From the IMG/VR virus record IMGVR_UViG_2734482770_000003: a stretch of 35,160 nt of DNA, one strand, 5' to 3'. A program made the translations under genes and the position numbers. A model generated the notes under the pieces. That model was not told the DNA's origin, did not search any database, and saw nothing but the letters and a program-made list of their open reading frames with translations. The DNA is from a virus (lineage: Duplodnaviria > Heunggongvirae > Uroviricota > Caudoviricetes). Shown here one piece after another: positions 6,395-33,225 of this stretch (within the stretch, counting starts at the first letter, position 1; each line of letters opens with the position of its first letter).

Positions 6395-7648
6395 ATGTTT
6401 ATGTCGATTTATCAAGGTGGTAACAAGTTAAATGAGGATGATTTTCGTTCTCACGTTTATTCCTTGTGTCAATTAGATAATGTTGGCGTTCTGTTAGGTG
6501 CTGGTGCTTCTGTCGGTTGTGGTGGGAAAACGATGAAAGATGTATGGAAATCGTTTAAGCAAAACTACCCTGAGCTTTTGGGAGCACTTATTGATAAATA
6601 TCTTCTGGTTTCGCAAATTGATTCTGATAACAATTTGGTCAATGTTGAACTTTTGATAGATGAAGCAACTAAATTTCTTTCTGTAGCTAAAACTAGACGA
6701 TGTGAAGATGAAGAGGAGGAATTCAGGAAGATATTAAGTTCATTATATAAAGAGGTTACGAAGGCTGCATTATTAACAGGAGAACAGTTTAGAGAGAAAA
6801 ATCAGGGTAAAAAAGATGCGTTTAAATATCACAAAGAGTTAATTTCAAAATTAATTTCAAATAGACAGCCCGGTCAGTCGGCTCCGGCAATTTTTACAAC
6901 AAATTATGATTTGGCCTTAGAGTGGGCTGCAGAAGATTTAGGAATACAGTTGTTTAATGGTTTTTCTGGGCTACATACACGGCAGTTTTATCCCCAGAAT
7001 TTTGATTTGGCTTTCAGAAATGTAAATGCGAAGGGCGAAGCAAGATTCGGACATTATCATGCGTATCTCTATAAATTACATGGCTCACTTACGTGGTATC
7101 AAAATGATAGCTTGACTGTTAACGAAGTTAGTGCATCTCAAGCATATGATGAATATATTAATGACATAATCAATAAAGATGACTTTTATCGCGGTCAACA
7201 TTTGATTTATCCAGGGGCGAATAAATATAGCCATACAATCGGCTTCGTTTATGGAGAGATGTTTAGACGTTTTGGGGAGTTTATTTCGAAACCTCAAACA
7301 GCGTTGTTCATAAATGGGTTTGGTTTCGGTGATTATCATATAAATAGAATAATATTAGGCGCGTTACTGAATCCATCTTTCCATGTTGTTATATATTATC
7401 CTGAATTGAAAGAAGCAATTACCAAAGTAAGTAAGGGTGGCGGTTCGGAAGCTGAGAAAGCTATTGTTACTTTAAAAAATATGGCTTTCAATCAAGTAAC
7501 TGTAGTTGGGGGAGGAAGCAAGGCATATTTTAATAGTTTCGTAGAACATCTACCATACCCTGTGCTCTTTCCACGAGATAATATTGTTGATGAGTTGGTT
7601 GAAGCAATTGCTAATCTTTCTAAAGGAGAAGGTAATGTCCCTTTTTAA
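6395..7648 (+). CDS. SIR2-like (sirtuin-fold) NADase-type defence protein
   Basis: Gly-rich NAD-binding-like LLGAGASVGCGG near N-terminus, TTNYD motif, catalytic-His-like KLHGS; AT-rich cargo at P2 tin/old position; alternative start at 6401. Confidence 0.8.
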   Translation: MFMSIYQGGNKLNEDDFRSHVYSLCQLDNVGVLLGAGASVGCGGKTMKDVWKSFKQNYPELLGALIDKYLLVSQIDSDNNLVNVELLIDEATKFLSVAKTRRCEDEEEEFRKILSSLYKEVTKAALLTGEQFREKNQGKKDAFKYHKELISKLISNRQPGQSAPAIFTTNYDLALEWAAEDLGIQLFNGFSGLHTRQFYPQNFDLAFRNVNAKGEARFGHYHAYLYKLHGSLTWYQNDSLTVNEVSASQAYDEYINDIINKDDFYRGQHLIYPGANKYSHTIGFVYGEMFRRFGEFISKPQTALFINGFGFGDYHINRIILGALLNPSFHVVIYYPELKEAITKVSKGGGSEAEKAIVTLKNMAFNQVTVVGGGSKAYFNSFVEHLPYPVLFPRDNIVDELVEAIANLSKGEGNVPF

Positions 7649-9467
7649 ACTTACTGAAATCTCGGCTATTGGATACGTTGTAGGATTAGAAGGGGAAAGA
7701 ATTAGGATAAACCTGCATGAGGGGTTGCAAGGCAGATTAGCATCGCATAGAAAGGGGGTGAGCTCAGTAACGCAACCAGGAGATCTTATTGGGTTCGATG
7801 CAGGTAATATATTAGTTGTCGCAAGAGTGACAGATATGGCATTTGTTGAAGCGGATAAAGCGCATAAGGCAAATGTAGGCACATCTGATTTAGCTGATAT
7901 ACCTTTAAGACAAATTATCGCCTATGCAATTGGCTTTGTGAAAAGGGAGTTAAATGGTTATGTTTTTATATCAGAAGATTGGCGCTTACCTGCATTGGGT
8001 TCTTCTGCTGTTCCTTTGACTTCAGATTTTTTGAACATCATTTATAGTATTGATAAAGAAGAACTCCCAAAAGCGGTTGAATTAGGTGTGGATTCTCGAA
8101 CTAAAACCGTTAAGATATTTGCAAGTGTTGATAAATTATTGTCGCGACACTTAGCCGTTCTTGGTAGTACAGGATATGGTAAATCAAATTTCAATGCTTT
8201 GTTAACGAGGAAGGTTTCTGAAAAATACCCTAACTCAAGAATAGTTATTTTTGACATAAATGGTGAATACGCGCAAGCTTTTACAGGTATTCCAAATGTA
8301 AAGCACACTATTCTAGGGGAATCCCCAAATGTTGATAGTTTGGAAAAAAATCAGCAAAAGGGTGAGCTATATAGTGAAGAGTATTATTGTTATAAAAAGA
8401 TACCATATCAGGCATTAGGTTTTGCTGGGTTAATTAAATTATTAAGACCAAGTGATAAAACACAATTGCCCGCATTAAGAAATGCATTAAGTGCAATTAA
8501 TCGGACTCATTTTAAAAGCCGTAATATTTACTTGGAAAAAGATGATGGTGAAACTTTTCTTTTGTATGATGATTGTCGTGACACAAATCAAAGTAAATTG
8601 GCTGAGTGGTTGGATTTATTAAGGCGTAGACGTCTTAAAAGAACGAATGTATGGCCGCCGTTTAAAAGTTTAGCGACTTTGGTTGCTGAATTTGGATGTG
8701 TAGCTGCTGACCGTTCTAATGGAAGTAAACGTGACGCGTTTGGTTTTAGTAACGTGTTGCCATTGGTAAAAATCATACAACAACTTGCAGAGGATATAAG
8801 ATTTAAATCTATTGTTAATTTAAATGGAGGGGGTGAGCTAGCAGATGGTGGAACGCATTGGGATAAAGCTATGAGTGATGAAGTTGATTACTTCTTTGGT
8901 AAGGAAAAAGGACAAGAAAATGATTGGAATGTTCATATAGTTAATATGAAAAATTTGGCGCAAGATCATGCTCCAATGTTACTTAGTGCATTGTTGGAGA
9001 TGTTTGCTGAGATACTATTTAGACGTGGGCAGGAACGTTCGTATCCTACGGTACTTTTGTTGGAAGAAGCGCATCATTACCTGCGTGACCCTTATGCTGA
9101 AATTGACTCACAGATTAAAGCATATGAACGACTTGCTAAAGAAGGTAGGAAATTCAAATGCTCTTTAATTGTCAGTACTCAGCGACCCTCAGAGCTTTCT
9201 CCTACTGTTTTGGCAATGTGTTCAAACTGGTTTTCGTTACGTTTGACTAATGAAAGAGATTTACAGGCTCTCAGATATGCAATGGAAAGCGGTAATGAAC
9301 AAATCTTAAAACAAATATCAGGTTTACCAAGAGGTGATGCTGTTGCATTTGGTTCTGCATTTAATTTGCCTGTAAGAATTTCAATTAATCAAGCAAGGCC
9401 AGGGCCAAAATCTTCAGATGCTGTTTTTTCTGAAGAATGGGCTAATTGTACAGAATTACGTTGTTAA
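7635..9467 (+). CDS. HerA-like (FtsK/HerA superfamily) ATPase, partner of SIR2 protein
   Basis: Walker A VLGSTGYGKS, Walker B-like VLLLEEAHHY; ATG at 7635 preceded by aaaggagaagg; 14-nt overlap with upstream SIR2 stop. Confidence 0.8.
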   Translation: MSLFKLTEISAIGYVVGLEGERIRINLHEGLQGRLASHRKGVSSVTQPGDLIGFDAGNILVVARVTDMAFVEADKAHKANVGTSDLADIPLRQIIAYAIGFVKRELNGYVFISEDWRLPALGSSAVPLTSDFLNIIYSIDKEELPKAVELGVDSRTKTVKIFASVDKLLSRHLAVLGSTGYGKSNFNALLTRKVSEKYPNSRIVIFDINGEYAQAFTGIPNVKHTILGESPNVDSLEKNQQKGELYSEEYYCYKKIPYQALGFAGLIKLLRPSDKTQLPALRNALSAINRTHFKSRNIYLEKDDGETFLLYDDCRDTNQSKLAEWLDLLRRRRLKRTNVWPPFKSLATLVAEFGCVAADRSNGSKRDAFGFSNVLPLVKIIQQLAEDIRFKSIVNLNGGGELADGGTHWDKAMSDEVDYFFGKEKGQENDWNVHIVNMKNLAQDHAPMLLSALLEMFAEILFRRGQERSYPTVLLLEEAHHYLRDPYAEIDSQIKAYERLAKEGRKFKCSLIVSTQRPSELSPTVLAMCSNWFSLRLTNERDLQALRYAMESGNEQILKQISGLPRGDAVAFGSAFNLPVRISINQARPGPKSSDAVFSEEWANCTELRC

Positions 9468-19058: not shown

Positions 19059-19844
19059 TTATGAGTGATTTTTATTTGATGCTTTGTATTCTACAACCTT
19101 CTTATTGGCGTAAAGGAATTTTGTATATGACAGGAATATAACCAGACCTGAAATGAAATAGATGAGGGATATTATTAATAATGCTTTTTTTTGGCTGTTA
19201 TTATCTTTAATCTCCTGACTTAACCATTCCGAGTCCTCCTCGTTTAGCTGTAAGAGCTTATTGCAGGCGATCTCAGGAAGTGTGTCTTTTATAAATACGT
19301 TTCGTAGCCTCTTGCAATCGGCAAGGCTATAAGTTTTATTGAATTCAACTGTTTTATTGTTGAAGGATAAAAGAACTTTGTCACTATAAACATAGTACAT
19401 CATATTTTTATATGGTATGCCTATGGCATCTCTTACTATAGCGGATTGTTTGTTGTGTATATAACATGCGAAGAGAATATAAATAATGCTGGACAGAATT
19501 ACAATTATTGTTTTAATTATGTGTGGTGGTTTTGTTATGTCACCCCAGAAGCGAGTAAGAAAAAAATACGATGTTTTTAGTTTTCCATCAATCAGCCCCT
19601 GCTGTATCATTCTCACATCTTCGATGCCTGATACATTGATTCCGTTAATTATTTTAAATAGTTGAATGTCGCGCCATTTTTTGTCGAGCATTTTTAACTT
19701 TCTGTCTGAATACTCAAAATTGAAATAATGTGCAATAAACCTCATAAGATTACTTTTACCAAAGGTAATAAATGTTAATACTATTAATAAAAATAGATAC
19801 AAAGAGATAAACCACCACGCATTAGTCACATTATCACTGAACAT
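19059..19844 (-). CDS. Unrecognised cargo protein with three predicted transmembrane segments (P2 orf30 position)
   Basis: 261 aa; ATG with gaggag SD; hydrophobic stretches near residues 9-28, 108-128, 221-241; strongly AT-rich, opposite strand to flanking late genes. Confidence 0.6.
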   Translation of the reverse strand: MFSDNVTNAWWFISLYLFLLIVLTFITFGKSNLMRFIAHYFNFEYSDRKLKMLDKKWRDIQLFKIINGINVSGIEDVRMIQQGLIDGKLKTSYFFLTRFWGDITKPPHIIKTIIVILSSIIYILFACYIHNKQSAIVRDAIGIPYKNMMYYVYSDKVLLSFNNKTVEFNKTYSLADCKRLRNVFIKDTLPEIACNKLLQLNEEDSEWLSQEIKDNNSQKKALLIISLIYFISGLVIFLSYTKFLYANKKVVEYKASNKNHS

Positions 19845-19927
19845 TACGCTCTCCTCGAATGTTGTATGGTCGTTCTACAAATGAATCCAGATAGCATAAC
19901 TTTTATATATTGTGCAATCTCACACGC

Positions 19928-20563
19928 ATGAACACTCTCGCAAATATTCAGGAACTCGCGCGCGCACTGCGCAACATGATTCGTACCGGCCTTGTCGTCG
20001 AAACCAACCTTAAAGCCGGTCGCTGCCGTGTGCAGACCGGTGGCATGTGCACCGACTGGCTTCTGTGGCTGACCCATCGTGCCGGACGTTCGCGCACATG
20101 GTGGGCACCTTCCGTGGGGGAACAGGTGCTGATTCTGGCTGTGGGCGGTGAACTCGACACGGCGTTCGTTCTGCCGGGGATTTATTCCGGCGATAACCCC
20201 GCGCCGTCTGCGTCGGCGGATGCCCTGCATATCCGTTTCCCTGACGGGGCGGTGATTGAGTATGAACCCGAAACCAGTGCACTCACGGCAAGCGGAATTA
20301 AAACGGCCAGCGTGACGGCTTCTGATTCTGTTACTGCCACGGTGCCGGTGGTCATGGTGAAAGCATCAACCCGCGTCACCCTGGACACACCGGAGGTGGT
20401 CTGCACCAACAGGCTGATTACCGGCACGCTGGAAGTGCAGAAGGGCGGGACGATGCGCGGCAACATTGAACACACCGGCGGTGAACTCTCATCAAACGGT
20501 AAGGTACTGCATACCCATAAACACCCCGGCGACAGCGGCGGCACAACCGGGAGTCCTCTATGA
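19928..20563 (+). CDS. V: Baseplate spike/assembly protein gpV
   Basis: 211 aa from ATG at 19928 (P2 V is 211 aa); track ORF starts at a TTG at 19910. Confidence 0.85.
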   Translation: MNTLANIQELARALRNMIRTGLVVETNLKAGRCRVQTGGMCTDWLLWLTHRAGRSRTWWAPSVGEQVLILAVGGELDTAFVLPGIYSGDNPAPSASADALHIRFPDGAVIEYEPETSALTASGIKTASVTASDSVTATVPVVMVKASTRVTLDTPEVVCTNRLITGTLEVQKGGTMRGNIEHTGGELSSNGKVLHTHKHPGDSGGTTGSPL

Positions 20564-22353: not shown

Positions 22354-24672
22354 ATGAGCACAAAATTCAGAACCGTTATCACCACTGCCGGTGCAGCAAA
22401 GCTGGCAGCGGCAACCGCGCCGGGAGGGCGGAAGGTCAACATTACCACGATGGCCGTCGGGGATGGCGGTGGTAAATTACTTGTCCCGGATGCCGGACAG
22501 ACCGGGCTTATCCATGAAGTCTGGCGACATGCGCTGAACAAAATCAGCCAGGACAAACGAAACAGTAATTATATTATCGCAGAGCTGGTTATTCCGCCGG
22601 AGGTGGGCGGTTTCTGGATGCGTGAGCTTGGCCTGTACGATGATGCGGGAACGTTAATTGCCGTGGCGAACATGGCCGAAAGTTATAAGCCAGCTCTTGC
22701 CGAAGGCTCAGGGCGTTCGCAGACCTGTCGCATGGTCATCATCGTCAGCAGTGTGGCCTCGGTGGAGCTGACCATTGACACCGCAACGGTGATGGCGACA
22801 CAGGATTACGTTGATGACAAAATTGCAGAGCACGAACAGTCACGACGTCACCCGGACGCCTCGCTGACCGCAAAAGGTTTTACTCAGTTAAGCAGTGCGA
22901 CCAACAGCACGTCTGAAACACTGGCCGCAACGCCGAAAGCGGTAAAGGCCGCCTATGACCTTGCTAACGGGAAATATACCGCACAGGACGCTACCACAGC
23001 GCGAAAAGGTCTTGTCCAGCTCAGTAGTGCCACCAACAGCACGTCTGAAACGCTCGCCGCAACACCAAAAGCGGTAAAGGCCGCGTATGACCTTGCTAAC
23101 GGGAAATACACTGCACAGGACGCCACCACAACGCGAAAAGGTCTTGTCCAGCTCAGTAGCGTCACCAACAGCGATTCTGAAACGCTTGCGGCAACGCCAA
23201 AGGCGGTAAAGGCCGCGTATGACCTTGCTAACGGGAAATACACTGCACAGGATGCCACTACAGCGCGAAAAGGTCTTGTCCAGCTCAGTAGCGCCACCAA
23301 CAGTGATTCTGAAACGCTGGCCGCAACATCAAAAGCGGTGAAGTCTGCCTATGACAATGCTGAAAAACGTCTTCAGAAAGATCAGAACGGTGCGGATATT
23401 CCGGGAAAGGATACCTTCACGAAAAATATCGGTGCCTGTCGTGCTTATAGCGGCGCTTTGAGCACTGAAGCCGGAAACTGGACAACCGCTCAGTTTATTG
23501 AATGGCTGGATTCCCGTGGTGCATTTAATCATCCGTACTGGATGTGCAAAGGCTCATGGTCATATGCAAATAACAAAATCATTACGGATACCGGATGTGG
23601 TGATATCCACCTGGCTGGTTGTGTCGTCGAGGTCATGGGAACTAAATCTGCAATCACTATCCGAGTGACCACGCCGACAACATCAAGTGGTGGCGGTACA
23701 ACCAGCGCGCAATTCACTTACATTAATCATGGGGACGGCTACTCCCCCGGCTGGCGTCGTGACTGGAATCGTCAGGGCGACTCAATGACCGGAACGATTA
23801 ATCAGGATGGCGGAAGCCAGAATGCCTATATGTCTACGGCCTTATGTTCAGGCACCAGAGGCGGCAAAAAATATCTCAGAAAGTTTCGTGGTGGAGAAGG
23901 AGACACTATCTGGCATGAAACAGTACAGGGCGGGGTAATTCGCTGGGCGACAGGAAACTATGACGCTCAGGAAGAATTATCACTCAGCTCCGCTTATGGT
24001 CTCCGTTCAAGAGGTGAGATTACATCACTCAGTGCTAATGGTCTGCGCATTGCTTATGGCAATTATGGATTCTTTATCAGGAATGATGGCAGCAGCACTT
24101 ATTTTATGTTGACTAAATCAGGTGACAGATTAGGTACTTATAATAATTTAAGACCACTGATTATAAATGATGCCACGGGTGCTGTATCAATGGGGCATGG
24201 CCTGAGTGTTACTGGTGATATTGTCTCAAGTACCAAAGTACGTGCCGGTAGCGGGAAAAAGTTCACGGTCAGCAGCAGCAATACATCCACGAAGGAAGCC
24301 GCATTCAATTTGTGGGGAAACTCAAGTCGTCCTGTGGTGGCTGAATTAGGTGATGATGCAGGCTGGCATTTTTACAGTCAGAGAAATACAGATAACAGCA
24401 TCACTTTTGCTGTTAACGGGCAGGTATCACCATCTAACTATAGTAATTTTGATTCACGCTATGTCCGGGATATCCGGCTTGGTGGTGCTGCCACATACAA
24501 ACCTGCGAACAATGGCATGACATGGACACATCAGGCACCGTCCGGGTGTGTATATTCCGGCATTATTGTTCAGGATACCGGCTCAAACTCTGCCGATAAC
24601 ATTGGTGGCATATATTACAGACCGGTGCAGAAATACATTAACGGGACATGGTATAACGTAGCGCAGGTATAA
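22354..24672 (+). CDS. H: Tail fibre protein gpH (with internal tandem repeats)
   Basis: 772 aa; N-terminus typical of P2-like H; contains about 3.6 tandem 44-aa repeats; variable C-terminal receptor-binding part. Confidence 0.85.
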   Translation: MSTKFRTVITTAGAAKLAAATAPGGRKVNITTMAVGDGGGKLLVPDAGQTGLIHEVWRHALNKISQDKRNSNYIIAELVIPPEVGGFWMRELGLYDDAGTLIAVANMAESYKPALAEGSGRSQTCRMVIIVSSVASVELTIDTATVMATQDYVDDKIAEHEQSRRHPDASLTAKGFTQLSSATNSTSETLAATPKAVKAAYDLANGKYTAQDATTARKGLVQLSSATNSTSETLAATPKAVKAAYDLANGKYTAQDATTTRKGLVQLSSVTNSDSETLAATPKAVKAAYDLANGKYTAQDATTARKGLVQLSSATNSDSETLAATSKAVKSAYDNAEKRLQKDQNGADIPGKDTFTKNIGACRAYSGALSTEAGNWTTAQFIEWLDSRGAFNHPYWMCKGSWSYANNKIITDTGCGDIHLAGCVVEVMGTKSAITIRVTTPTTSSGGGTTSAQFTYINHGDGYSPGWRRDWNRQGDSMTGTINQDGGSQNAYMSTALCSGTRGGKKYLRKFRGGEGDTIWHETVQGGVIRWATGNYDAQEELSLSSAYGLRSRGEITSLSANGLRIAYGNYGFFIRNDGSSTYFMLTKSGDRLGTYNNLRPLIINDATGAVSMGHGLSVTGDIVSSTKVRAGSGKKFTVSSSNTSTKEAAFNLWGNSSRPVVAELGDDAGWHFYSQRNTDNSITFAVNGQVSPSNYSNFDSRYVRDIRLGGAATYKPANNGMTWTHQAPSGCVYSGIIVQDTGSNSADNIGGIYYRPVQKYINGTWYNVAQV
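22868..23350 (+). repeat. Tandem 132-bp coding repeats (about 3.6 copies) inside tail fibre gene H
   Basis: Unit boundaries recur at 23000, 23132, 23264; encoded unit LSSATNSTSETLAATPKAVKAAYDLANGKYTAQDATTARKGLVQ. Confidence 0.85.
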
Positions 24673-24675
24673 TTT

Positions 24676-25203
24676 ATGCAGCATTTGATAAATATAACGG
24701 CGGGTAATCCAAAAACAGTTGAACAATATCAATTGACAAAGAACTTTGATGTTGTCTGGTTTTTTACAGAAGATGGTAAGAACTGGTACGAAGAACAAAA
24801 GTATTTTGCTGATGACACGATAAAAATAGCGTACGACAAAGATAATATCATCCGCTATGTGGAAAAGGATGTGACAGCTATCAGACCGGATGGATTAAGT
24901 GTGGTTGAAGTGGCGGATATTACTGCTAACCGACGGGCGGACATTTCAGGGAACTGGATGTTTAAGGACGGCAAAGTGATTAAACGCATTTATACGGCAG
25001 ATGAATTGCGGCGGCAGGCAGAAATTCGGAAAGTCAGACTTCTTGCAGATGCTGAATCCGTGATTTTGCCGCTGGAGCGCGCTGTCAGGCTGAACATGGC
25101 AACAGATGAGGAGCGTAGCCGACTGGAAGCATGGGAGCGTTACAGCGTTCTGGTCAGTCGTGTGGATCCTGCAAATCCTGAATGGCCGGAAATGCCGCAA
25201 TAA
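24676..25203 (+). CDS. G: Tail fibre assembly chaperone gpG
   Basis: 175 aa (same as P2 G); directly downstream of H. Confidence 0.85.
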
Positions 25204-25567
25204 GTTGTATGAGTTCTGGTGTGAGCTTACACATCTATGGCACAGAGTAAAGCCTAATCTGACAGTTCGCTCTGTGCCAGAAACAGACGTCACTTATATA
25301 TTTCTGTATTAATCAATGAGGAAAGATTCAATTCTCTATAATGGAGGTTGCGTCCACTGTTTTCTCTAAGCAGACCAAGTTCCCTTAACGAAAAATTTAG
25401 TGTCAGAAACTAATATTGACAAAGAGGCAATGTTATATAGTATTAGTTTGATAACTAAAAATATAAGCCTGATTATCTCAAGCTTATATAGGTGATAAAG
25501 TTTCTAACTTAATTTGATTATAGAAGATACATTTCTTAATTATGACGCATTGATAATGGATTCAACT

Positions 25568-26593
25568 TCATTCAATAATGTCTGGTAGAACATTAAATCC
25601 AGTTGGTCGAAAAAAGGATAATCTTTGCTGATGAGAAACTAAATCTATCTTCACAATGTGATGATGGTTTTTTTTGATTTTTCTAGAGTACAATGAGTAA
25701 AAAAGATTTTCTGTGTTAATTTCCACAATGATTCCAGACATATCTAAGTCATAGCATTTTGCTAATGCTTTCAATTTTGGTGATATTTTGCTCTCTTTAA
25801 ACTTTTCATTATATTCCGGTTGAAAATATCTTATCAAAGCAGCTTCGATTATATTAATGGCTTGATTTTTGTTTGGGTGATTTTTTAATGCAAACTTAAA
25901 TCGCTTGTCATCGCTATCCGTATCATTAATTAATCCAGACCTCCCATCTAGAGATGAGAATACTTGTTCATGCTCAAAGGCATACATAAAAAGCATGATC
26001 TCTTGATCTGGCTTGTTATAAAGCGTTTGCGCCAATATTTTTTGTAATTTTGAATGACTCCTTAAACGTTCAACTGCATTCCTGCTACCATTTTTACCTA
26101 CGGCTTGTCCAATATAAAGAACTTCATATGAGGACAGATCTGAATAGTAACCTAATTTACTTGAATATAAGGTGGCAATGAAAGATGCAGAGATGTAAGT
26201 TACCTCCTCCCCTTCATTATTTATACTAATAACTTCTCTGAATGGATAGTTACATATTATATCAGTTGCATCGTCTTCTAATATCCAGTTGTGTTCAAAA
26301 TGGAACTTGCTTTCTTTACCATCTATTTTGTACCCTATCTCTCCTGAGAGAATGTTTTTCTCATGATTAATTGTATTATCAATAAAATAAAAGCTTGGGC
26401 GAGCGCATATAAAGTATATATGGCATTTTGAAAGTTGTTTTTCTTGTTCTAAATTAATTTTTGCATCAGACGTTAGTTGCTGAGCAGTAAGCATCGCTGT
26501 AAAACTATTTAAGTATCCAAAAGCAAATTCGTGTATGAATTTTCTTTTCACTCGAAATATCCTCACTAGAAATGAATAATATTGGTTTTTCAT
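25568..26593 (-). CDS. Unrecognised cargo protein at the Z/fun position (candidate defence/exclusion gene)
   Basis: 341 aa, no TM segments evident, AT-rich, opposite strand to tail genes, flanked by AT-rich non-coding DNA on both sides. Confidence 0.6.
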   Translation of the reverse strand: MKNQYYSFLVRIFRVKRKFIHEFAFGYLNSFTAMLTAQQLTSDAKINLEQEKQLSKCHIYFICARPSFYFIDNTINHEKNILSGEIGYKIDGKESKFHFEHNWILEDDATDIICNYPFREVISINNEGEEVTYISASFIATLYSSKLGYYSDLSSYEVLYIGQAVGKNGSRNAVERLRSHSKLQKILAQTLYNKPDQEIMLFMYAFEHEQVFSSLDGRSGLINDTDSDDKRFKFALKNHPNKNQAINIIEAALIRYFQPEYNEKFKESKISPKLKALAKCYDLDMSGIIVEINTENLFYSLYSRKIKKNHHHIVKIDLVSHQQRLSFFRPTGFNVLPDIIE

Positions 26594-26922
26594 GATAATA
26601 CTCTATTGATCCTAGACTTACCATTTAAAAAACGAACTGACATGCTCCCGTTGATTAATAAGCTGTAAGGTTAGCAATTCTTTTGGCGTTGAGAACAACT
26701 GCGAACTTCCGTTCCTTGCTCAAAGCAGACTGTCAGATTTGATAGCGTTTGGGCTATGTAAGTAGCCAGTTGGAGAATGAGTGAGTGCAAATCAGGACTG
26801 GCGGGCGAATTGCCCGCATTTTCTTTATCTGTTGTTTCATCCACTGACCAGCCTGGTCAAATAGCGTCTCATGCACTGCCCAACAGAAAATAGTTGCACC
26901 CATTAACCACGGAGTTAAACGG

Positions 26923-28113
26923 ATGAGTGACTATCATCACGGCGTGCAGGTGCTGGAGATTAACGACGGCACCCGCGTCATTTCCACCGTATCCACTGCC
27001 ATTGTCGGCATGGTCTGCACGGCCAGCGATGCGGATGCGGAAACCTTCCCCCTCAATAAACCGGTGCTGATTACCAATGTGCAGAGCGCAATTGCAAAGG
27101 CCGGTAAAAAAGGCACGCTGGCGGCGTCGTTACAGGCCATCGCTGACCAGTCAAAACCGGTCACCGTTGTCGTCCGTGTGGAAGACGGCACCGGCGAAGA
27201 CGAAGAAACGAAACTCGCGCAGACCGTTTCCAATATCATCGGCACCACCGACGAAAACGGCCAGTACACCGGACTGAAAGCCCTGCTGGCGGCAGAATCG
27301 GTAACCGGTGTTAAACCGCGTATTCTCGGTGTGCCGGGACTGGACACCAAAGAGGTGGCCGTCGCACTGGCATCAGTCTGTCAGAAGCTGCGCGCTTTCG
27401 GGTATATCAGCGCATGGGGCTGTAAAACCATTTCTGAGGTGAAAGCCTACCGCCAGAATTTCAGCCAGCGTGAGTTGATGGTCATCTGGCCTGATTTCCT
27501 CGCATGGGATACGGTCACCAGTACCACCGCCACCGCGTATGCCACCGCCCGTGCGCTGGGTCTGCGTGCCAAAATCGACCAGGAGCAGGGCTGGCATAAA
27601 ACGCTGTCCAACGTCGGGGTAAACGGTGTTACCGGCATCAGTGCCTCTGTATTCTGGGATTTGCAGGAGTCCGGCACCGATGCTGACCTGTTGAACGAGT
27701 CAGGTGTCACAACGCTGATTCGCCGTGACGGTTTCCGCTTCTGGGGTAACCGTACCTGCTCTGATGACCCGCTGTTCCTCTTTGAAAACTACACCCGCAC
27801 CGCGCAGGTGCTGGCCGACACGATGGCTGAGGCGCACATGTGGGCGGTGGACAAGCCCATCACCGCAACGCTGATTCGCGACATCGTTGACGGTATCAAT
27901 GCCAAATTCCGTGAGCTGAAAACAAACGGCTATATCGTGGATGCGACCTGCTGGTTCAGCGAAGAATCCAACGATGCGGAAACCCTCAAGGCCGGAAAAC
28001 TGTATATCGACTACGACTATACACCGGTGCCTCCTCTCGAAAACCTGACCCTGCGCCAGCGTATTACCGATAAATACCTGGCAAATCTGGTTACTTCGGT
28101 TAACAGCAATTAA
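26923..28113 (+). CDS. FI: Tail sheath protein gpFI
   Basis: 396 aa (same as P2 FI); ggag SD. Confidence 0.9.
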   Translation: MSDYHHGVQVLEINDGTRVISTVSTAIVGMVCTASDADAETFPLNKPVLITNVQSAIAKAGKKGTLAASLQAIADQSKPVTVVVRVEDGTGEDEETKLAQTVSNIIGTTDENGQYTGLKALLAAESVTGVKPRILGVPGLDTKEVAVALASVCQKLRAFGYISAWGCKTISEVKAYRQNFSQRELMVIWPDFLAWDTVTSTTATAYATARALGLRAKIDQEQGWHKTLSNVGVNGVTGISASVFWDLQESGTDADLLNESGVTTLIRRDGFRFWGNRTCSDDPLFLFENYTRTAQVLADTMAEAHMWAVDKPITATLIRDIVDGINAKFRELKTNGYIVDATCWFSEESNDAETLKAGKLYIDYDYTPVPPLENLTLRQRITDKYLANLVTSVNSN

Positions 28114-28125
28114 GGAGCCTGACCG

Positions 28126-28644
28126 ATGGCAATGCCGCGCAAACTCAAGTTAATGAACGTCTTTCTGAACGGCTACAGCTATCAGGGCGTCGCGAAGTCC
28201 GTCACGCTGCCAAAACTGACCCGTAAGCTCGAAAACTATCGCGGTGCGGGGATGAACGGCAGCGCACCGGTAGACCTCGGCCTTGATGACGATGCGCTGT
28301 CAATGGAGTGGTCGCTCGGTGGCTTCCCGGATTCGGTTATCTGGGAGCTTTACGCCGCAACCGGTGTGGATGCCGTACCGATTCGTTTTGCAGGCTCTTA
28401 CCAGCGCGACGATACCGGCGAAACGGTGGCCGTCGAGGTGGTCATGCGTGGACGTCAGAAAGAAATCGACACCGGCGAGGGCAAACAGGGAGAAGACACC
28501 GAGTCGAAAATCTCCGTGGTCTGCACCTATTTCCGGCTGACGATGGACGGTAAGGAGCTGGTCGAAATCGACACCATCAACATGATTGAGAAGGTGAACG
28601 GCGTCGACCGGCTGGAGCAACACCGCCGCAATATCGGCCTGTGA
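28126..28644 (+). CDS. FII: Tail tube protein gpFII
   Basis: 172 aa (same as P2 FII). Confidence 0.9.
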   Translation: MAMPRKLKLMNVFLNGYSYQGVAKSVTLPKLTRKLENYRGAGMNGSAPVDLGLDDDALSMEWSLGGFPDSVIWELYAATGVDAVPIRFAGSYQRDDTGETVAVEVVMRGRQKEIDTGEGKQGEDTESKISVVCTYFRLTMDGKELVEIDTINMIEKVNGVDRLEQHRRNIGL

Positions 28645-31582: not shown

Positions 31583-32062
31583 ATGATGCTCGCGTTAGGT
31601 ATGTTTGTTTTTATGCGCCAGACGCTGCCACACCAGACCATGCAGCGCGAATCAGATTATCGCTGGCCGTCAAATTCCCGTATCGGTAAACGGGATGCCT
31701 TTCAGTTTCTCGGTGTGGGTGAGGAAAACATCACGCTTGCCGGTGTGCTTTATCCCGAACTGACCGGCGGCAAGCTGACGATGACCACGCTCAGACTGAT
31801 GGCAGAGGAAGGCCGGGCGTGGCCGTTGCTGGATGGCACCGGCATGATTTACGGCATGTATGTCATCAGCAAGGTGAGTGAAACAGGGAGTATTTTCTTT
31901 GCAGACGGCACACCCCGGAAAATTGATTTTACGCTGTCGCTCACCCGCGTTGATGAATCACTGGCCGCGCTTTATGGCGATATCGGTAAACAGGCGGAAT
32001 CGCTCATCGGTAAGGCTGGCAGTATGGCGACTAAATTCACGGGTATGACGGGGGCGGGATAA
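31583..32062 (+). CDS. U: Tail protein gpU
   Basis: 159 aa (same as P2 U). Confidence 0.85.
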   Translation: MMLALGMFVFMRQTLPHQTMQRESDYRWPSNSRIGKRDAFQFLGVGEENITLAGVLYPELTGGKLTMTTLRLMAEEGRAWPLLDGTGMIYGMYVISKVSETGSIFFADGTPRKIDFTLSLTRVDESLAALYGDIGKQAESLIGKAGSMATKFTGMTGAG

Positions 32063-33225
32063 TGCTGGATGCGCTGACATTTGATGCAGGCAGTACGCTG
32101 ACGCCGGATTACATGCTGATGCTCGACAGCAGGGATATTACCGGCAATATCAGCGACCGTCTGATGAGCATGACCCTGACGGATAACCGGGGCTTTGAGG
32201 CTGACCAGCTTGATATTGAACTGAACGACGCCGACGGGCAGGTCGGGCTACCGATTCGTGGCGCTGTCCTGACGGTGTATATCGGCTGGAAAGGTTTTGC
32301 CCTGGTATGCAAAGGGAAATTTACCGTTGATGAGGTTGAACACCGGGGCGCACCGGATGTGGTCACCATCCGCGCCCGGAGTGCAGATTTCCGCGGGACG
32401 CTCAATTCCCGCCGGGAAGGCTCCTGGCATGACACCACGCTCGGTGCGATTGTTGAGGCGATAGCCTCCCGTAACAAGCTGGAGGCCAGTGTCGCTCCGT
32501 CACTGGCCGGAATTAAAATCCCGCACATCGACCAGTCGCAGGAGTCTGATGCGAAATTCCTGACCCGTCTTGCAGAACGCAACGGCGGTGAGGTGTCGGT
32601 AAAAATGGGAAAACTGTTGTTTCTCAAAGCGGGGCAGGGGGTGACGGCCAGCGGTAAAAAAATCCCGCAGGTCACCATCACCCGCAGCGACGGCGACCGT
32701 CATCATTTTGCGATTGCTGACCGTGGAGCCTATACCGGCGTTACGGCAAAGTGGTTACACACCAAAGACCCGAAGCCGCAAAAGCAGAAGGTAAAACTGA
32801 AACGCAAAAAGAAAGAGAAACACCTGCGCGCACTGGAGCACCCGAAAGCGAAACCGGTCACGCAGAAGAAAGAGCCAAAAGTACCGGAAGCGCGCGAAGG
32901 TGAATACATGGCCGGTGAGGCTGACAACGTTTTTGCCCTGACCACGGTATATGCCACGAAAGCACAGGCCATGCGCGCCGCTCAGGCGAAGTGGGATAAA
33001 CTACAACGGGGTGTTGCGGAGTTCTCCATCAGCCTGGCTACTGGTCGGGCAGATATTTACACGGAAACACCGGTTAAAGTGTCAGGCTTTAAGCGCGTCA
33101 TAGACGAGCAGGACTGGACCATCACTAAGGTGACACATTGTCTCAATAATAGCGGCTTCACGACGTCCTTGGAGCTTGAGGTCAGGCTTTCTGATGTGGA
33201 GTACGAAACAGAAGATGATGAGTGA
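32062..33225 (+). CDS. D: Tail protein gpD (late gene)
   Basis: 387 aa (same as P2 D); start overlaps U stop. Confidence 0.85.
   Translation: MLDALTFDAGSTLTPDYMLMLDSRDITGNISDRLMSMTLTDNRGFEADQLDIELNDADGQVGLPIRGAVLTVYIGWKGFALVCKGKFTVDEVEHRGAPDVVTIRARSADFRGTLNSRREGSWHDTTLGAIVEAIASRNKLEASVAPSLAGIKIPHIDQSQESDAKFLTRLAERNGGEVSVKMGKLLFLKAGQGVTASGKKIPQVTITRSDGDRHHFAIADRGAYTGVTAKWLHTKDPKPQKQKVKLKRKKKEKHLRALEHPKAKPVTQKKEPKVPEAREGEYMAGEADNVFALTTVYATKAQAMRAAQAKWDKLQRGVAEFSISLATGRADIYTETPVKVSGFKRVIDEQDWTITKVTHCLNNSGFTTSLELEVRLSDVEYETEDDE

What the first reader, a model, noticed from the sequence alone, without database searches (positions are those of the whole stretch)
25204..26922. Unrecognised 341-aa gene in an AT-rich island at the Z/fun position (between G and FI)
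The tail-gene string is interrupted exactly where P2 carries the accessory gene Z/fun. The insert is one reverse-oriented, AT-rich ORF (25568..26593) with AT-rich non-coding DNA on both sides. I cannot assign the protein to any family I know, nor confirm or exclude relatedness to P2 Fun itself. One weak motif is GYY-x9-YIG-x8-R-x4-RSH (...LGYYSDLSSYEVLYIGQAVGKNGSRNAVERLRSH...), loosely reminiscent of a GIY-YIG nuclease core; this is a hypothesis only. A single-gene cargo at a defence hotspot is a good candidate for an undescribed abortive-infection or exclusion function.
Basis: partly seen in the sequence, partly recalled or inferred. Interest (0 to 1): 0.8.

Follow-up and report, generated by a model that had tools for sequence, protein, structure and literature searches.

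The report
Hidden split GIY-YIG nuclease cassette
The unannotated gene sitting among the tail genes of this P2-like prophage very probably encodes a DNA-cutting enzyme of the GIY-YIG type whose catalytic motif is split by an inserted domain. It belongs to a large uncharacterised family that travels as a single-gene cassette in prophage defence hotspots, integrons and other mobile elements, which makes it a good but untested candidate for a new anti-phage defence gene.

Summary
A reverse-oriented ORF (25568..26593) sits in a 28-36% GC island between tail genes G and FI, at the P2 Z/fun locus. The true start is most likely GTG 26551, giving 327 aa rather than 341. The protein is unrelated to P2 Fun(Z) and has no significant hit in Pfam, NCBIfam, PADLOC or the PDB. 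It belongs to a large unnamed family (1,295 clusters at 50% identity, many phyla).

The residues conserved in at least 90% of family members match a GIY-YIG nuclease active site: Y46 in H-I-Y, Y146-I-G148, R162-x3-H166 and E236-x11-N248. The last two spacings equal those of R.Eco29kI. Every weak database hit is a GIY-YIG family (Eco29kI, GIY_YIG_2, UvrC). Coevolution analysis places the HIY strand between the YIG strand and strand 183-191, as in the GIY-YIG sheet, so about 90 residues are inserted into the β1-β2 hairpin.

The gene has no conserved partner. Relatives occupy both P2 defence hotspots, other prophages, an ICE, integron cassette arrays and sites next to OLD or Cas genes.

The best reading is a stand-alone nuclease acting in anti-phage defence. 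The fold assignment is about 85% likely and the defence role about 60%. Neither activity nor phenotype has been tested.

The parts
25568..26551 (-). Gene for the 327-aa protein (RefSeq WP_223675583.1, 'hypothetical protein'). It is a member of PHROG 15714 and of a large unnamed family.
   Evidence: ORF. RefSeq CDS coordinates. Homolog N-termini. PHROG E 1e-218. 1,295 clusters at 50% identity.
26552..26593 (-). 14 in-frame codons upstream of the likely start. This is probably 5' UTR, with the Shine-Dalgarno GAGGA at 26564-26560.
   Evidence: Sequence. The 327-aa length of homologs and the RefSeq start.
26595..26600 (-). TATTAT, a candidate -10 hexamer for the gene's own promoter, downstream of an A/T tract. 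There is no good -35. This assignment is an inference only.
   Evidence: Read from the sequence. The consensus scan found no strong minus-strand promoter in this region.
26414..26422 (-). Codons for H44-I45-Y46, the proposed 'GIY' motif on β1, the central strand of the nuclease sheet.
   Evidence: Y46 is invariant in A2 and conserved in at least 90% of A4. Strand 45-52 appears in the AF2 model. It couples antiparallel to strands 141-149 and 183-191.
26132..26395 (-). Residues 53-140: a β-rich module of about 90 residues inserted between β1 (HIY) and β2 (YIG). Its function is unknown; it is a candidate substrate-recognition or sensor module.
   Evidence: AF2 secondary structure with pLDDT mostly above 88. 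Internal coevolving pairs G70-F85, I57-K82 and E92-V117. No structural match in the PDB or BFVD.
26108..26116 (-). Codons for Y146-I147-G148, the 'YIG' motif on β2.
   Evidence: Invariant in A1/A2 and conserved in at least 90% of A4. Aligns to YVG of UvrC in the relaxed hhalign alignment.
26054..26068 (-). Codons for R162-L-R-S-H166, the Arg-x3-His pair of the GIY-YIG α1 helix.
   Evidence: R162 is invariant in A1/A2 and conserved in at least 90% of A4; H166 is invariant in A1, A2 and A4. The spacing equals R104/H108 of R.Eco29kI and R27/H31 of I-TevI (PMC1952068; the I-TevI H31 position is from my own knowledge).
25808..25846 (-). Codons for E236-AALIRYFQPEY-N248: the metal-binding Glu helix and the structural Asn.
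   Evidence: E236 is invariant throughout; N248 is invariant in A1/A2 and conserved in at least 90% of A4. HMMER aligns them to E76 and N88 of T. maritima UvrC. hhalign vs an E. coli-type UvrC N-domain profile gives P 5e-5.
25461..25489 (-). Terminator-like hairpin (12-bp A/T-rich stem followed by a T run) 79 nt after the stop codon.
25269..26728 (.). The exchangeable 1.46-kb cassette: gene, 177 nt upstream and about 300 nt downstream. It is 90.4% identical to an orphan copy in the Providencia rustigianii chromosome.
   Evidence: blastn. Boundary alignments. The Providencia flanks are a fimbrial operon and LysR/PrpF, with no P2 genes.
25256..25290 (.). Left arm of the 35-nt imperfect inverted repeat of the P2 Z locus. 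The outer 11-13 nt are P2-specific; the inner about 22 nt travel with the cassette.
   Evidence: (I1). The 'left inverted repeat' annotation in AJ512685 is shown.
26705..26739 (.). Right arm of the same inverted repeat.
26740..26922 (+). Conserved P2 backbone upstream of FI: a terminator-like hairpin at 26801-26817 and the region homologous to the P2 pF late promoter and activator site. This is not part of the cargo.
   Evidence: About 90% identity to many P2-like phages. P2 annotation. Alignment. Hairpin.

Best explanation
The gene encodes a stand-alone Mg2+-dependent DNA endonuclease of the GIY-YIG superfamily. Its active site resembles that of R.Eco29kI and UvrC: Tyr46, Tyr146, Arg162, His166, Glu236 and Asn248. 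The fold is unusual because a β-rich module of about 90 residues is inserted into the β1-β2 hairpin, so the 'GIY' (here HIY) and 'YIG' motifs lie 100 residues apart. Extra N- and C-terminal elements pack on the core.

The gene is carried on a 1.46-kb AT-rich cassette with its own expression signals. It is transcribed against the late tail operons, so it can be expressed from the prophage in the lysogen.

The most likely role is lysogenic-conversion immunity: the enzyme cuts incoming phage or other foreign DNA. No methyltransferase or other partner accompanies it. Discrimination from host DNA is therefore presumed to reside in the protein itself, most plausibly in the inserted module and the C-terminal region. 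These might recognise a feature of foreign DNA, such as a modified base or a replication or injection structure, or might keep the enzyme inactive until infection.

Shown here: the gene, the cassette boundaries, the family, the conservation pattern, the strand topology from coevolution, the lack of a partner, and the mobile and defence contexts.

Inferred: nuclease activity, expression in the lysogen, the defence role, and how self is spared.
For: Fold:
- The conserved positions map one-to-one on the six GIY-YIG catalytic or structural residues: Y146, G148, R162, H166, E236 and N248 are invariant in A1/A2; in the 144 diverse representatives (A4) H166 and E236 stay invariant and Y46, Y146, G148, R162 and N248 are conserved in at least 90%.
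- The R-x3-H and E-x11-N spacings equal those of R.Eco29kI, where these residues were validated by mutagenesis (PMC1952068).
- Single-sequence weak hits are to RE_Eco29kI (E 0.16) and UvrC (E 0.11).
- Family profiles against the PDB rank the UvrC GIY-YIG domain first (E 0.13-0.31) and Eco29kI next, aligning E236 and N248 to UvrC E76 and N88.
- Of 144 diverse members scanned separately, 14 hit RE_Eco29kI and 6 hit GIY_YIG_2. No unrelated Pfam family recurs in more than 2.
- hhalign of the core against a UvrC N-domain profile gives 66% probability and P 5e-5. The relaxed alignment puts YVG/YVG, RL/RL, E/E and YN/YN in register.
- The core-only model retrieves only two of 350,542 PDB chains, both the UvrC GIY-YIG domain. 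The scores are not significant.
- Mean-field DCA (244 sequences, Neff 211) shows strand 45-52 coupled antiparallel to the YIG strand (ranks 3 and 9; P 3e-4) and to strand 183-191 (ranks 11-13; P 2e-6). No strong coupling (top 60) links those two strands directly; weaker pairs appear at ranks 64, 104 and 175. This is the β2-β1-β3 sheet order I recall for GIY-YIG folds.

Stand-alone module:
- Among 667 neighbour proteins in 78 loci, no cluster occurs in more than 3 loci.
- No methylase appears among the recurrent neighbour families.

Defence and mobile context:
- The window locus is the P2 Z/fun hotspot (PMC9519451; PMC13586616).
- A distant homolog lies between gpA and the portal gene, which is P2 hotspot 1.
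- Other homologs sit in a lambdoid-type prophage at a moron position, in ICE cargo and next to an OLD-like ATPase in Serratia.
- Neighbours include OLD (E 1e-227), Septu/Gabija-type ATPases, and Cas1 and Cas7.
- 33 IMG/VR viral contigs carry the family.
- About 14 of 76 loci carry an integron-cassette signature, with arrays verified in L044 and L073. Integron cassettes are a documented reservoir of defence genes.
- The same prophage already carries SIR2-HerA in hotspot 1.
Against: - No hit to any GIY-YIG model reaches a curated or conventional significance threshold. The Pfam best is E 0.002-0.16, below gathering scores, and hhalign gives only 41-68%.
- Foldseek with the confident full-length model found no GIY-YIG structure in the top 50. 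The core-only model was mediocre (pLDDT 77, no strands) and its UvrC hits have E 3-9.
- Splicing the HIY strand onto the core did not improve hhalign beyond control splices. The identity of the first Tyr therefore rests on conservation plus coevolution, not on alignment.
- I could not inspect the model coordinates to confirm that the six residues cluster.
- PADLOC (2023) has no model matching the protein.
- Many neighbours of homologs are ordinary housekeeping genes, so enrichment near defence genes is modest and was not formally tested.
- No promoter of good consensus was found.
- A solitary endonuclease with no immunity partner needs an unexplained means of sparing host DNA.
Confidence: 0.55

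Rival explanations
1. Abortive-infection variant: the same GIY-YIG nuclease is held inactive in the lysogen and is switched on by a phage cue. It then degrades host and phage DNA indiscriminately, so the infected cell dies or arrests before phage release. This rival concerns the mechanism, not the fold.
For: The gene is solitary, with no methylase or immunity gene. The large inserted module and C-terminal elements could act as an autoinhibitory sensor. Many single-gene prophage defences found at P2 hotspots act by abortive infection (PMC9519451).
Against: Nothing in the sequence distinguishes triggered from constitutive activity. Eco29kI-like and UvrC-like cores are normally substrate-specific rather than promiscuous.
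Confidence: 0.2
2. Selfish free-standing homing endonuclease: the nuclease cuts P2-like genomes, or other sites, that lack the cassette. It spreads by recombinational repair, as the seg and mob genes of T4 do, with no benefit to the host.
For: GIY-YIG is a classic homing-endonuclease fold. The gene sits between conserved phage genes. Its presence is polymorphic: 6 of 5,426 complete E. coli genomes carry the cassette, while 1,017 carry only the flanks. A near-identical cassette with sharply defined ends occurs at an unrelated chromosomal site in Providencia.
Against: No NUMOD, HTH or other DNA-binding module typical of GIY-YIG homing enzymes was detected. The full-length architecture is conserved across phyla, which is not expected for enzymes tracking different target sequences. 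Members occur as integron cassettes, ICE cargo and chromosomal islets, which move by other means. The Z locus holds many unrelated cargo genes between the same repeats. The gene is oriented against the late operons, whereas a homing enzyme would be expected to be expressed during phage replication (my inference).
Confidence: 0.12
3. Orphan or trans-protected type II restriction endonuclease of the Eco29kI/Cfr42I kind. It would have a sequence-specific target, with the host protected by a methyltransferase encoded elsewhere or by absence of sites.
For: The most frequent weak Pfam hit is RE_Eco29kI, in 14 of 144 members. The catalytic residue spacing is identical to Eco29kI.
Against: There is no methyltransferase in the cassette and none among the recurrent neighbour families. 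The cassette moves alone into new hosts such as Providencia, integrons and ICEs, which would be lethal for a classical restriction enzyme. The score is far below the Pfam gathering threshold (12 vs 30.8 bits). The architecture differs: 327 aa with an inserted module, against a Pfam model length of 164.
Confidence: 0.08
4. Not a defence gene. It could be a GIY-YIG-derived protein with a housekeeping or phage-beneficial role, for example repair or processing of DNA structures, or anti-defence. It could also be a catalytically inactive scaffold.
For: UvrC, Cho and Slx1 show that GIY-YIG cores also serve in repair. Many homologs have ordinary metabolic neighbours. No phenotype is known.
Against: The distribution is rare and patchy: 325 stretches in 185,579 species genomes. 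The surroundings are hyper-variable, and the gene is repeatedly carried by prophages, ICEs and integrons. All of this is atypical for housekeeping repair genes. All six catalytic residues are conserved in at least 90% of the family (two of them invariant), which argues against an inactive scaffold.
Confidence: 0.05

Closest known systems
R.Eco29kI / Cfr42I (GIY-YIG type II restriction endonucleases; Pfam PF09517)
   Same: It is the most frequent weak Pfam hit across the family. The six-residue active-site pattern is the same and the R-x3-H and E-x11-N spacings are identical (Eco29kI Y49, Y76, R104, H108, E142, N154). Eco29kI also has an enlarged β1-β2 region, with 27 residues between the two Tyr.
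   Different: There is no cognate methyltransferase. Scores are far below the family threshold. Here 100 residues lie between the two Tyr because of a folded β-rich insert. Extra N- and C-terminal elements are present. The protein is 327 aa, whereas Eco29kI is about 214 aa (from my own knowledge; the crystallised chain 3nic_A is 235 residues).
UvrC / Cho N-terminal GIY-YIG domain (Pfam PF01541; PDB 1ycz, 1yd6)
   Same: It is the top hit in PDB sequence-profile searches and the only hit in the domain fold search. The helix EAaLIrYFqPxYN aligns to EAnLIKKYRPKYN, and YVGQ and RL align to YVGK and RL.
   Different: UvrC is a multi-domain repair protein that works with UvrA and UvrB. Its GIY and YIG motifs are about 10 residues apart, and it has Tyr rather than His after the Arg. 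Its genomic behaviour is completely different: universal and vertically inherited, against rare and mobile here.
Single-gene GIY-YIG defence systems: PD-T4-3, PD-λ-1 (SNIPE) and Uzume
   Same: These are single proteins whose effector is a GIY-YIG nuclease and which act in anti-phage defence. Some were found in E. coli prophages.
   Different: No PADLOC model for these, or for any other system, matches the protein even at E 10. SNIPE is membrane-anchored, with DUF4041 and a C-terminal nuclease domain. Neither Pfam nor PADLOC detects any such domain here, and I see no obvious hydrophobic membrane segment in the sequence, though no transmembrane predictor was run. The GIY-YIG core is interrupted by an insert.
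P2 Fun(Z)
   Same: It has the same genomic slot (between G and FI), the same reverse orientation, the same AT-rich single-gene cargo arrangement and the same flanking inverted repeats.
   Different: There is no sequence or profile similarity: BLASTP E 2.7, hhalign 0.4%. Fun is 528 aa.
Free-standing GIY-YIG homing endonucleases (I-TevI, Seg and Mob proteins of T4)
   Same: They share the GIY-YIG catalytic core, location between conserved phage genes, and presence/absence polymorphism.
   Different: Those enzymes have a compact N-terminal GIY-YIG domain joined to NUMOD or HTH DNA-binding modules (from my own knowledge). None was detected here. This family also lives in integrons, ICEs and chromosomes across many phyla.

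Membership tests
GIY-YIG nuclease superfamily | Second motif 'YIG' on β2 (Tyr-x-Gly) | tested here: met
   Y146-[IV]-G148 is invariant in 24- and 114-sequence alignments and conserved in at least 90% of 144 diverse representatives.
GIY-YIG nuclease superfamily | First motif 'GIY' Tyr on β1, adjacent to β2 in a three-stranded antiparallel sheet | tested here: inconclusive
   The candidate is H44-I45-Y46, with Y46 conserved in at least 90%. Strand 45-52 coevolves antiparallel with strands 141-149 (P 3e-4) and 183-191 (P 2e-6), as a central β1 should. However, the motif is HIY rather than GIY and lies 100 residues from YIG. hhalign did not align it to UvrC GVY, and the coordinates could not be inspected.
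GIY-YIG nuclease superfamily | Conserved Arg on helix α1, followed 4 residues later by His or Tyr | tested here: met
   R162 is invariant in A1/A2 and conserved in at least 90% of A4; H166 is invariant in all three alignments. The spacing equals Eco29kI R104/H108. The pair lies in helices 159-164 and 167-179 of the model.
GIY-YIG nuclease superfamily | Metal-binding Glu on a helix and a conserved Asn 12-15 residues downstream | tested here: met
   E236 is invariant throughout; N248 is invariant in A1/A2 and conserved in at least 90% of A4. E236 lies in helix 228-243. HMMER aligns them to UvrC E76 and N88.
GIY-YIG nuclease superfamily | Statistically significant sequence or profile match to a curated GIY-YIG model | tested here: inconclusive
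   The best Pfam E-values are 0.002 (GIY_YIG_2) and 0.012 (RE_Eco29kI), all below gathering scores. The PDB profile E is 0.13. hhalign gives 41-68% probability with pairwise P 5e-5. The hits are nonetheless exclusively GIY-YIG families and recur in 20 member-hits, against at most 2 for any other family.
GIY-YIG nuclease superfamily | Three-dimensional fold similarity to solved GIY-YIG domains | tested here: inconclusive
GIY-YIG nuclease superfamily | Divalent-metal-dependent phosphodiester cleavage | not testable with these tools
   This requires purified protein.
Eco29kI-type restriction-modification system | Adjacent cognate DNA methyltransferase | tested here: not met
   There is no second ORF in the cassette. 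There is no conserved neighbour and no methylase among the recurrent neighbour Pfam families.
Eco29kI-type restriction-modification system | Pfam PF09517 match above the gathering score | tested here: not met
   12.2 bits against a cut-off of 30.8, covering only residues 226-263.
Known defence systems in PADLOC-DB v2 (including PD-T4-3, PD-λ-1 and Uzume) | Match to a system HMM | tested here: not met
   Zero families at E up to 10. The database dates from 2023, so later systems are not covered.
P2 Fun(Z) family | Sequence homology to Fun(Z) | tested here: not met
   BLASTP E 2.7 and hhalign probability 0.4%.
P2 hotspot cargo (Z/fun locus) | Located between G and FI, bounded by the conserved inverted repeats, and replaceable by other cargo | tested here: met
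GIY-YIG homing endonucleases (I-TevI/Seg type) | Compact N-terminal catalytic domain joined to NUMOD or HTH DNA-binding modules | tested here: not met
   No such Pfam domains appear in the query or in 144 members. The catalytic core is central and interrupted.
Integron gene cassette (applies to some family members, not to the window copy) | ORF bracketed by a GTTRRRY core upstream and its own attC (RYYYAAC...GTTRRRY palindrome) downstream, within an array of such sites | tested here: met
   L044 has a 63-nt attC-like repeat three times, with the gene exactly between copies 2 and 3. L073 has nine repeats 0.6-1.5 kb apart. About 14 of 76 loci have GTTAG[CG] upstream and its complement after the stop. 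No integrase was looked for.

The most novel reading that the evidence does not exclude
The family is a new class of one-protein immune nuclease in which a sensor module is built into the catalytic hairpin of a GIY-YIG domain. Because β1 (carrying the general-base Tyr) and β2 are joined only through the inserted module of about 90 residues, binding of a foreign-DNA feature or a phage protein by that module could assemble or release the active site. Self/non-self discrimination would then need no partner gene. This would explain why the gene can hop alone between prophage hotspots, integrons, ICEs and chromosomes across phyla.
Probability: 0.15. Interest if true: 0.8.

Novelty: new variant of a known kind. 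Interest (0 to 1): 0.6.

Why it matters
If the prediction holds, a family of more than a thousand sequence clusters would gain a fold, an active site and a testable role. The family is currently annotated only as 'hypothetical protein' and is invisible to Pfam, NCBIfam and PADLOC.

It would add a fourth, architecturally distinct single-gene GIY-YIG defence alongside PD-T4-3, SNIPE and Uzume. It would also show that one compact gene circulates between the two P2 hotspots, other prophages, ICEs and integron arrays.

A solitary nuclease that spares its host without a methylase raises a well-defined mechanistic question. The six predicted catalytic residues and the inserted module give direct handles for experiments.

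The case also shows how a GIY-YIG domain can escape profile and fold searches when its first hairpin is split by an insertion.

Tried and rejected
1. Homology to P2 Fun(Z): none.
2. Curated libraries with the single sequence (Pfam, NCBIfam, PADLOC, PDB): nothing significant. PHROG 15714 matches but has no function.
3. Foldseek of the full-length model against the PDB and BFVD: only noise, with TM at most 0.16.
5. The core-only AF2 model came out without β-strands (pLDDT 77). Its Foldseek hits were the right family but non-significant.
6. In-silico 'de-insertion': I spliced the HIY strand onto the core before hhalign. The scores (61-68%) were the same as for four control splices, so this test says nothing about β1.
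7. The UvrC profile I could build was shallow (Neff 2.3; only gamma-proteobacterial fragments were returned), which limits hhalign power.
8. Search for a conserved partner gene: none.
9. Family-wide terminal inverted repeats: observed equals shuffled, so the 35-nt repeat is a feature of the P2 Z locus and not of the family.
10. A strict regular expression for attC sites failed on real sites. Direct-repeat detection and the GTTAG bracket test worked instead. The trinucleotide control is confounded by A/T-rich words, so the 14 of 76 figure rests on the specific GTTAG[CG] motif and not on that control.
11. The consensus promoter scan found no convincing promoter for the gene.
12. A literature search for the accession, UniRef id and PHROG number found nothing.
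Full report
**1. The observation**

The ORF 25568..26593 on the minus strand (341 codons) is present as described. GC content falls to 0.28-0.36 between about 25300 and 26800, against 0.51-0.59 in the neighbouring tail genes. The neighbours are a tail-fibre gene (22354..24672), a tail-fibre assembly gene (24676..25203), the sheath gene FI (26923..28113) and the tube gene FII (28126..28644). RefSeq annotates the 100%-identical locus of E. coli O121 strain 201805972 in the same way and calls the gene 'hypothetical protein'.

In reference P2 this slot holds fun(Z), also reverse-oriented, followed by the pF activator site and promoter.

The window as a whole is a complete P2-like prophage. Its other hotspot, between gene A and the portal gene, carries a SIR2-HerA system.

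**2. Corrections to the anatomy**

*Start codon.* The start is most likely GTG 26551, for four reasons:
- A GAGGA lies 8 nt upstream.
- RefSeq's CDS is 327 aa.
- Almost all homologs are 325-330 aa and begin MKRKF.
- The upstream ATG abuts a -10-like TATTAT.

I use 327-aa numbering below.

*Extent of the cargo.* The 'island' 25204-26922 is not all cargo. The first about 85 nt and the last about 220 nt align with P2 and with P2-EC67, which carry different genes here. They contain a 35-nt imperfect inverted repeat (25256-25290 / 26705-26739) that GenBank entry AJ512685 annotates as left and right inverted repeats.

*The Providencia copy.* A copy of the cassette in Providencia rustigianii shares 90.4% DNA identity over window 25269..26728. 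It lies between a fimbrial operon and a LysR/PrpF locus, with no P2 genes nearby. Homology stops at symmetric positions inside both repeat arms. The outer 11-13 nt (AATCTGACAGT / ACTGTCAGATT) are P2-only. The inner about 22 nt are shared by all the sequences compared. So the unit that moves is a 1.46-kb cassette: the gene, 177 nt upstream, and about 300 nt downstream including a terminator-like hairpin (25461-25489). How it moves is unresolved.

**3. What the protein is not**

- It is not related to Fun(Z): BLASTP E 2.7, hhalign probability 0.4%.
- It has no significant match in Pfam, NCBIfam, PADLOC-DB or PDB sequences.
- It does match PHROG 15714 (E 1e-218), which has no function.
- All database names are 'hypothetical protein'.
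- No paper in the library mentions its accession, UniRef id or PHROG.

**4. The family**

The word-indexed search found 139 relatives. The exhaustive profile search found 1,295 clusters at 50% identity with E up to 1e-3, of which 559 have E up to 1e-30. Nearly all are 300-345 aa and match end to end.

In one genome per species, 325 stretches were found among 185,579 genomes. They span Pseudomonadota, Bacteroidota, Acidobacteriota, Planctomycetota, Cyanobacteria, Bacillota, Campylobacterota, Myxococcota and CPR. The family is therefore large, old, rare per genome and patchy.

**5. Fold and active site**

*Conserved residues.* Alignments of 24, 114 and 144 members show a small conserved set. H166, E236 and P245 are invariant even among the 144 diverse representatives. 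Y146, G148, R162, Q170, P181, N248 and H298 are invariant among the closer homologs and conserved in at least 90% of the diverse set. Y46 (in H-I-Y) is invariant in A2 and at least 90% conserved in A4; R310 is at least 90% conserved in both.

The pattern is Y-x-G, then R-x3-H, then E-x11-N inside 'EAALIRYFQPxYN'. This is the GIY-YIG active-site pattern. In R.Eco29kI the residues validated by mutagenesis are Y49, Y76, R104, H108, E142 and N154, with the same R-x3-H and E-x11-N spacing (PMC1952068).

*Database evidence.* Each line is individually weak, but all lines agree:

| Test | Result |
|---|---|
| Single sequence vs Pfam | RE_Eco29kI, E 0.16 |
| Single sequence vs NCBIfam | UvrC, E 0.11 |
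| Family profiles vs PDB | UvrC GIY-YIG domain first (E 0.13-0.31), Eco29kI next; E236 and N248 align to UvrC E76 and N88 |
| 144 members scanned one by one vs Pfam | RE_Eco29kI in 14, GIY_YIG_2 in 6; every other family in at most 2 |
| hhalign, core vs UvrC N-domain profile | 66% probability, P 5e-5; relaxed alignment puts YVGQ/YVGK, RL/RL, E/E and YN/YN in register |
| Foldseek, core-only model vs 350,542 PDB chains | Two hits only, both UvrC GIY-YIG 1yd6; E 3.1 and 9.3, not significant |

The full-length AF2 model is confident (pLDDT 83, pTM 0.83). It shows strands at 45-52, 141-149 and 183-191 and helices at 159-179 and 228-243.

I could not read the coordinates, so I ran mean-field DCA on 244 sequences (Neff 211). 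Among the 15 strongest long-range couplings:
- F47-I147 (rank 3) and A50-E143 (rank 9) form an antiparallel ladder between the HIY strand and the YIG strand (enrichment P 3e-4).
- A50-Q183, I48-L187 and R51-E184 (ranks 11-13) form a ladder between the HIY strand and strand 183-191 (P 2e-6).
- No strong coupling (top 60) links strands 141-149 and 183-191 directly; only weaker pairs appear, at ranks 64, 104 and 175.

This places the strand carrying H44-I45-Y46 in the middle of the sheet, which is the β2-β1-β3 order I recall for GIY-YIG domains. It would also explain why the trimmed core, lacking that strand, lost its sheet in the second model. That last point is my inference.

Residues 53-140 therefore form a β-rich module of about 90 residues inserted into the β1-β2 hairpin. 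Its internal couplings (G70-F85, I57-K82, E92-V117) support a folded unit.

A splice test meant to align HIY with UvrC's GVY was uninformative: control splices scored the same.

*Overall.* I put the GIY-YIG assignment at about 0.85. The identification of Y46 as the first catalytic Tyr is somewhat less certain.

**6. Context**

No partner gene exists. Among 667 neighbours within five genes in 78 loci, the largest homologous cluster occurs in three loci.

The cassette in the window has no second credible ORF. Only ORFs of 43 codons or fewer lie inside it, apart from a 57-codon ORF (26671..26844) that laps over the upstream boundary into the conserved P2 backbone.

Relatives occur in these settings:
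- At this same Z locus in E. coli. Only 6 of 5,426 complete genomes carry the cassette, while 1,017 share just the flanks. IMG/VR proviruses L096 and L097 also carry it.
- Between gene A and the portal gene of a distant P2-like prophage. This is the classical old/tin hotspot (the hotspot is defined in PMC9519451 and PMC9122126).
- Between gpU and a tail-fibre gene in another P2-like phage.
- At a moron position in a lambdoid-type prophage.
- In the cargo region of a Pseudomonas syringae ICE.
- Next to an OLD-like ATPase in Serratia.
- In 33 IMG/VR contigs overall.

Immediate neighbours of 40-odd loci include OLD (E 1e-227), Septu/Gabija-like ATPases, Cas1, Cas7, integrases, transposases and group II intron reverse transcriptases. 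They also include many ordinary genes. No recurrent methylase is present.

*Integron cassettes.* Unexpectedly, about 14 of 76 loci have GTTAG[C/G] 25-53 nt upstream of the gene and its reverse complement just after the stop. This is the signature of integron cassettes.
- In L044 a 63-nt attC-like palindrome occurs three times, with the gene exactly between two copies.
- In L073 nine repeats are spaced 0.6-1.5 kb apart, with the gene between two of them.

Integron cassettes have recently been shown to be rich in phage-defence genes.

**7. Interpretation**

The best-supported reading is a self-sufficient GIY-YIG endonuclease used as an anti-phage (or anti-mobile-element) defence. It would be expressed from the prophage independently of the late operons.

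The mechanism of self-sparing is unknown. I favour recognition of a foreign-DNA feature by the inserted or C-terminal modules, or infection-triggered activation (the abortive-infection variant).

The rivals are a selfish homing endonuclease, an orphan restriction enzyme, and a non-defence role. The evidence for and against each is in the Rival explanations section.

Nothing here demonstrates nuclease activity or a phage phenotype. PADLOC-DB dates from 2023, so a description under a newer name cannot be excluded.

**8. Novelty and score**

GIY-YIG nucleases in defence are known: PD-T4-3, PD-λ-1/SNIPE and Uzume. Unknown genes at P2 hotspots often turn out to be defences. The general idea is therefore not surprising.

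What is new:
- A large unnamed family gains a fold assignment.
- The GIY-YIG domain has a split-hairpin architecture.
- A single gene circulates among both P2 hotspots, integrons, ICEs and chromosomes.

I rate it a new variant of a known kind, with interest 0.6.

Noticed in passing
window 6395-9467: The other P2 hotspot, between replication gene A and portal gene Q, carries a two-gene SIR2 (6395..7648) plus HerA (7584..9467) defence system. The PADLOC hits are E 4e-190 and 2e-277. This prophage therefore carries a known defence in hotspot 1 and the candidate nuclease in hotspot 2.
   Followed up: partly
window 19059-20230: Two reverse-oriented ORFs (261 aa at 19059..19844 and 128 aa at 19844..20230) lie among the forward tail genes, roughly where I recall P2 carrying orf30. 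Neither has a Pfam or PADLOC hit. This may be another small accessory insert.
   Followed up: partly
window 25256-25290 and 26705-26739; L016 9825-11283: The orphan Providencia copy of the cassette ends at symmetric positions inside both arms of the 35-nt inverted repeat. The inner about 22 nt of each arm travel with the cassette and are also present in P2 and P2-EC67, which carry different cargo. The outer 11-13 nt are P2-only and are palindromic to each other, not a direct duplication. This hints at insertion into a palindrome, or at a repeat-directed exchange mechanism. It is unexplained.
   Followed up: partly
L044 1-1700; L073 5000-13026; also L018, L030, L033, L035-L038, L041, L061, L080, L083, L088: Family members in Luteimonas, a Bacteroidota MAG, Vibrio, Aliivibrio, Pseudoalteromonas, Saccharophagus and others are bracketed by GTTAG[CG] upstream and its complement after the stop. 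L044 and L073 sit in arrays of attC-like repeats, so they are integron gene cassettes. No integrase was searched for.
   Followed up: partly
L121 5914-6834: In a distant P2-like provirus the homolog lies between gpA (Phage_GPA, E 8e-79) and the holin and portal genes, which is the old/tin hotspot. The same family therefore uses both P2 hotspots.
   Followed up: yes
L002-L005 5845-7632: In Serratia the homolog (53% identity) is divergently adjacent to a 595-aa AAA_15/AAA_21/DUF2813 (OLD-like) ATPase, in a two-gene islet between LacI- and LysR-type regulator genes. This may be a miniature defence islet.
   Followed up: no
window 22880-23410: The tail-fibre gene H contains four tandem copies of a 44-aa unit (…KGxVQLSSATNSxSETLAATPKAVKAAYDLANGKYTAQDATT…). 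They are visible as a 132-nt periodicity, with out-of-frame ORFs at 22955, 23087 and 23219.
   Followed up: no
window 26801-26817: A G+C-rich terminator-like hairpin (GCGGGCGAATTGCCCGC followed by a T run) lies on the plus strand. It sits between the cassette and the pF promoter region and is conserved in P2 and P2-EC67. It could insulate the late F operon from read-through across the variable locus.
   Followed up: no
window 33799-35160: A peptidase U32 family gene (E 5e-89) follows the last phage gene (D-like, 32062..33225). It is probably host DNA, so the right prophage end lies at about 33.3-33.8 kb.
   Followed up: no
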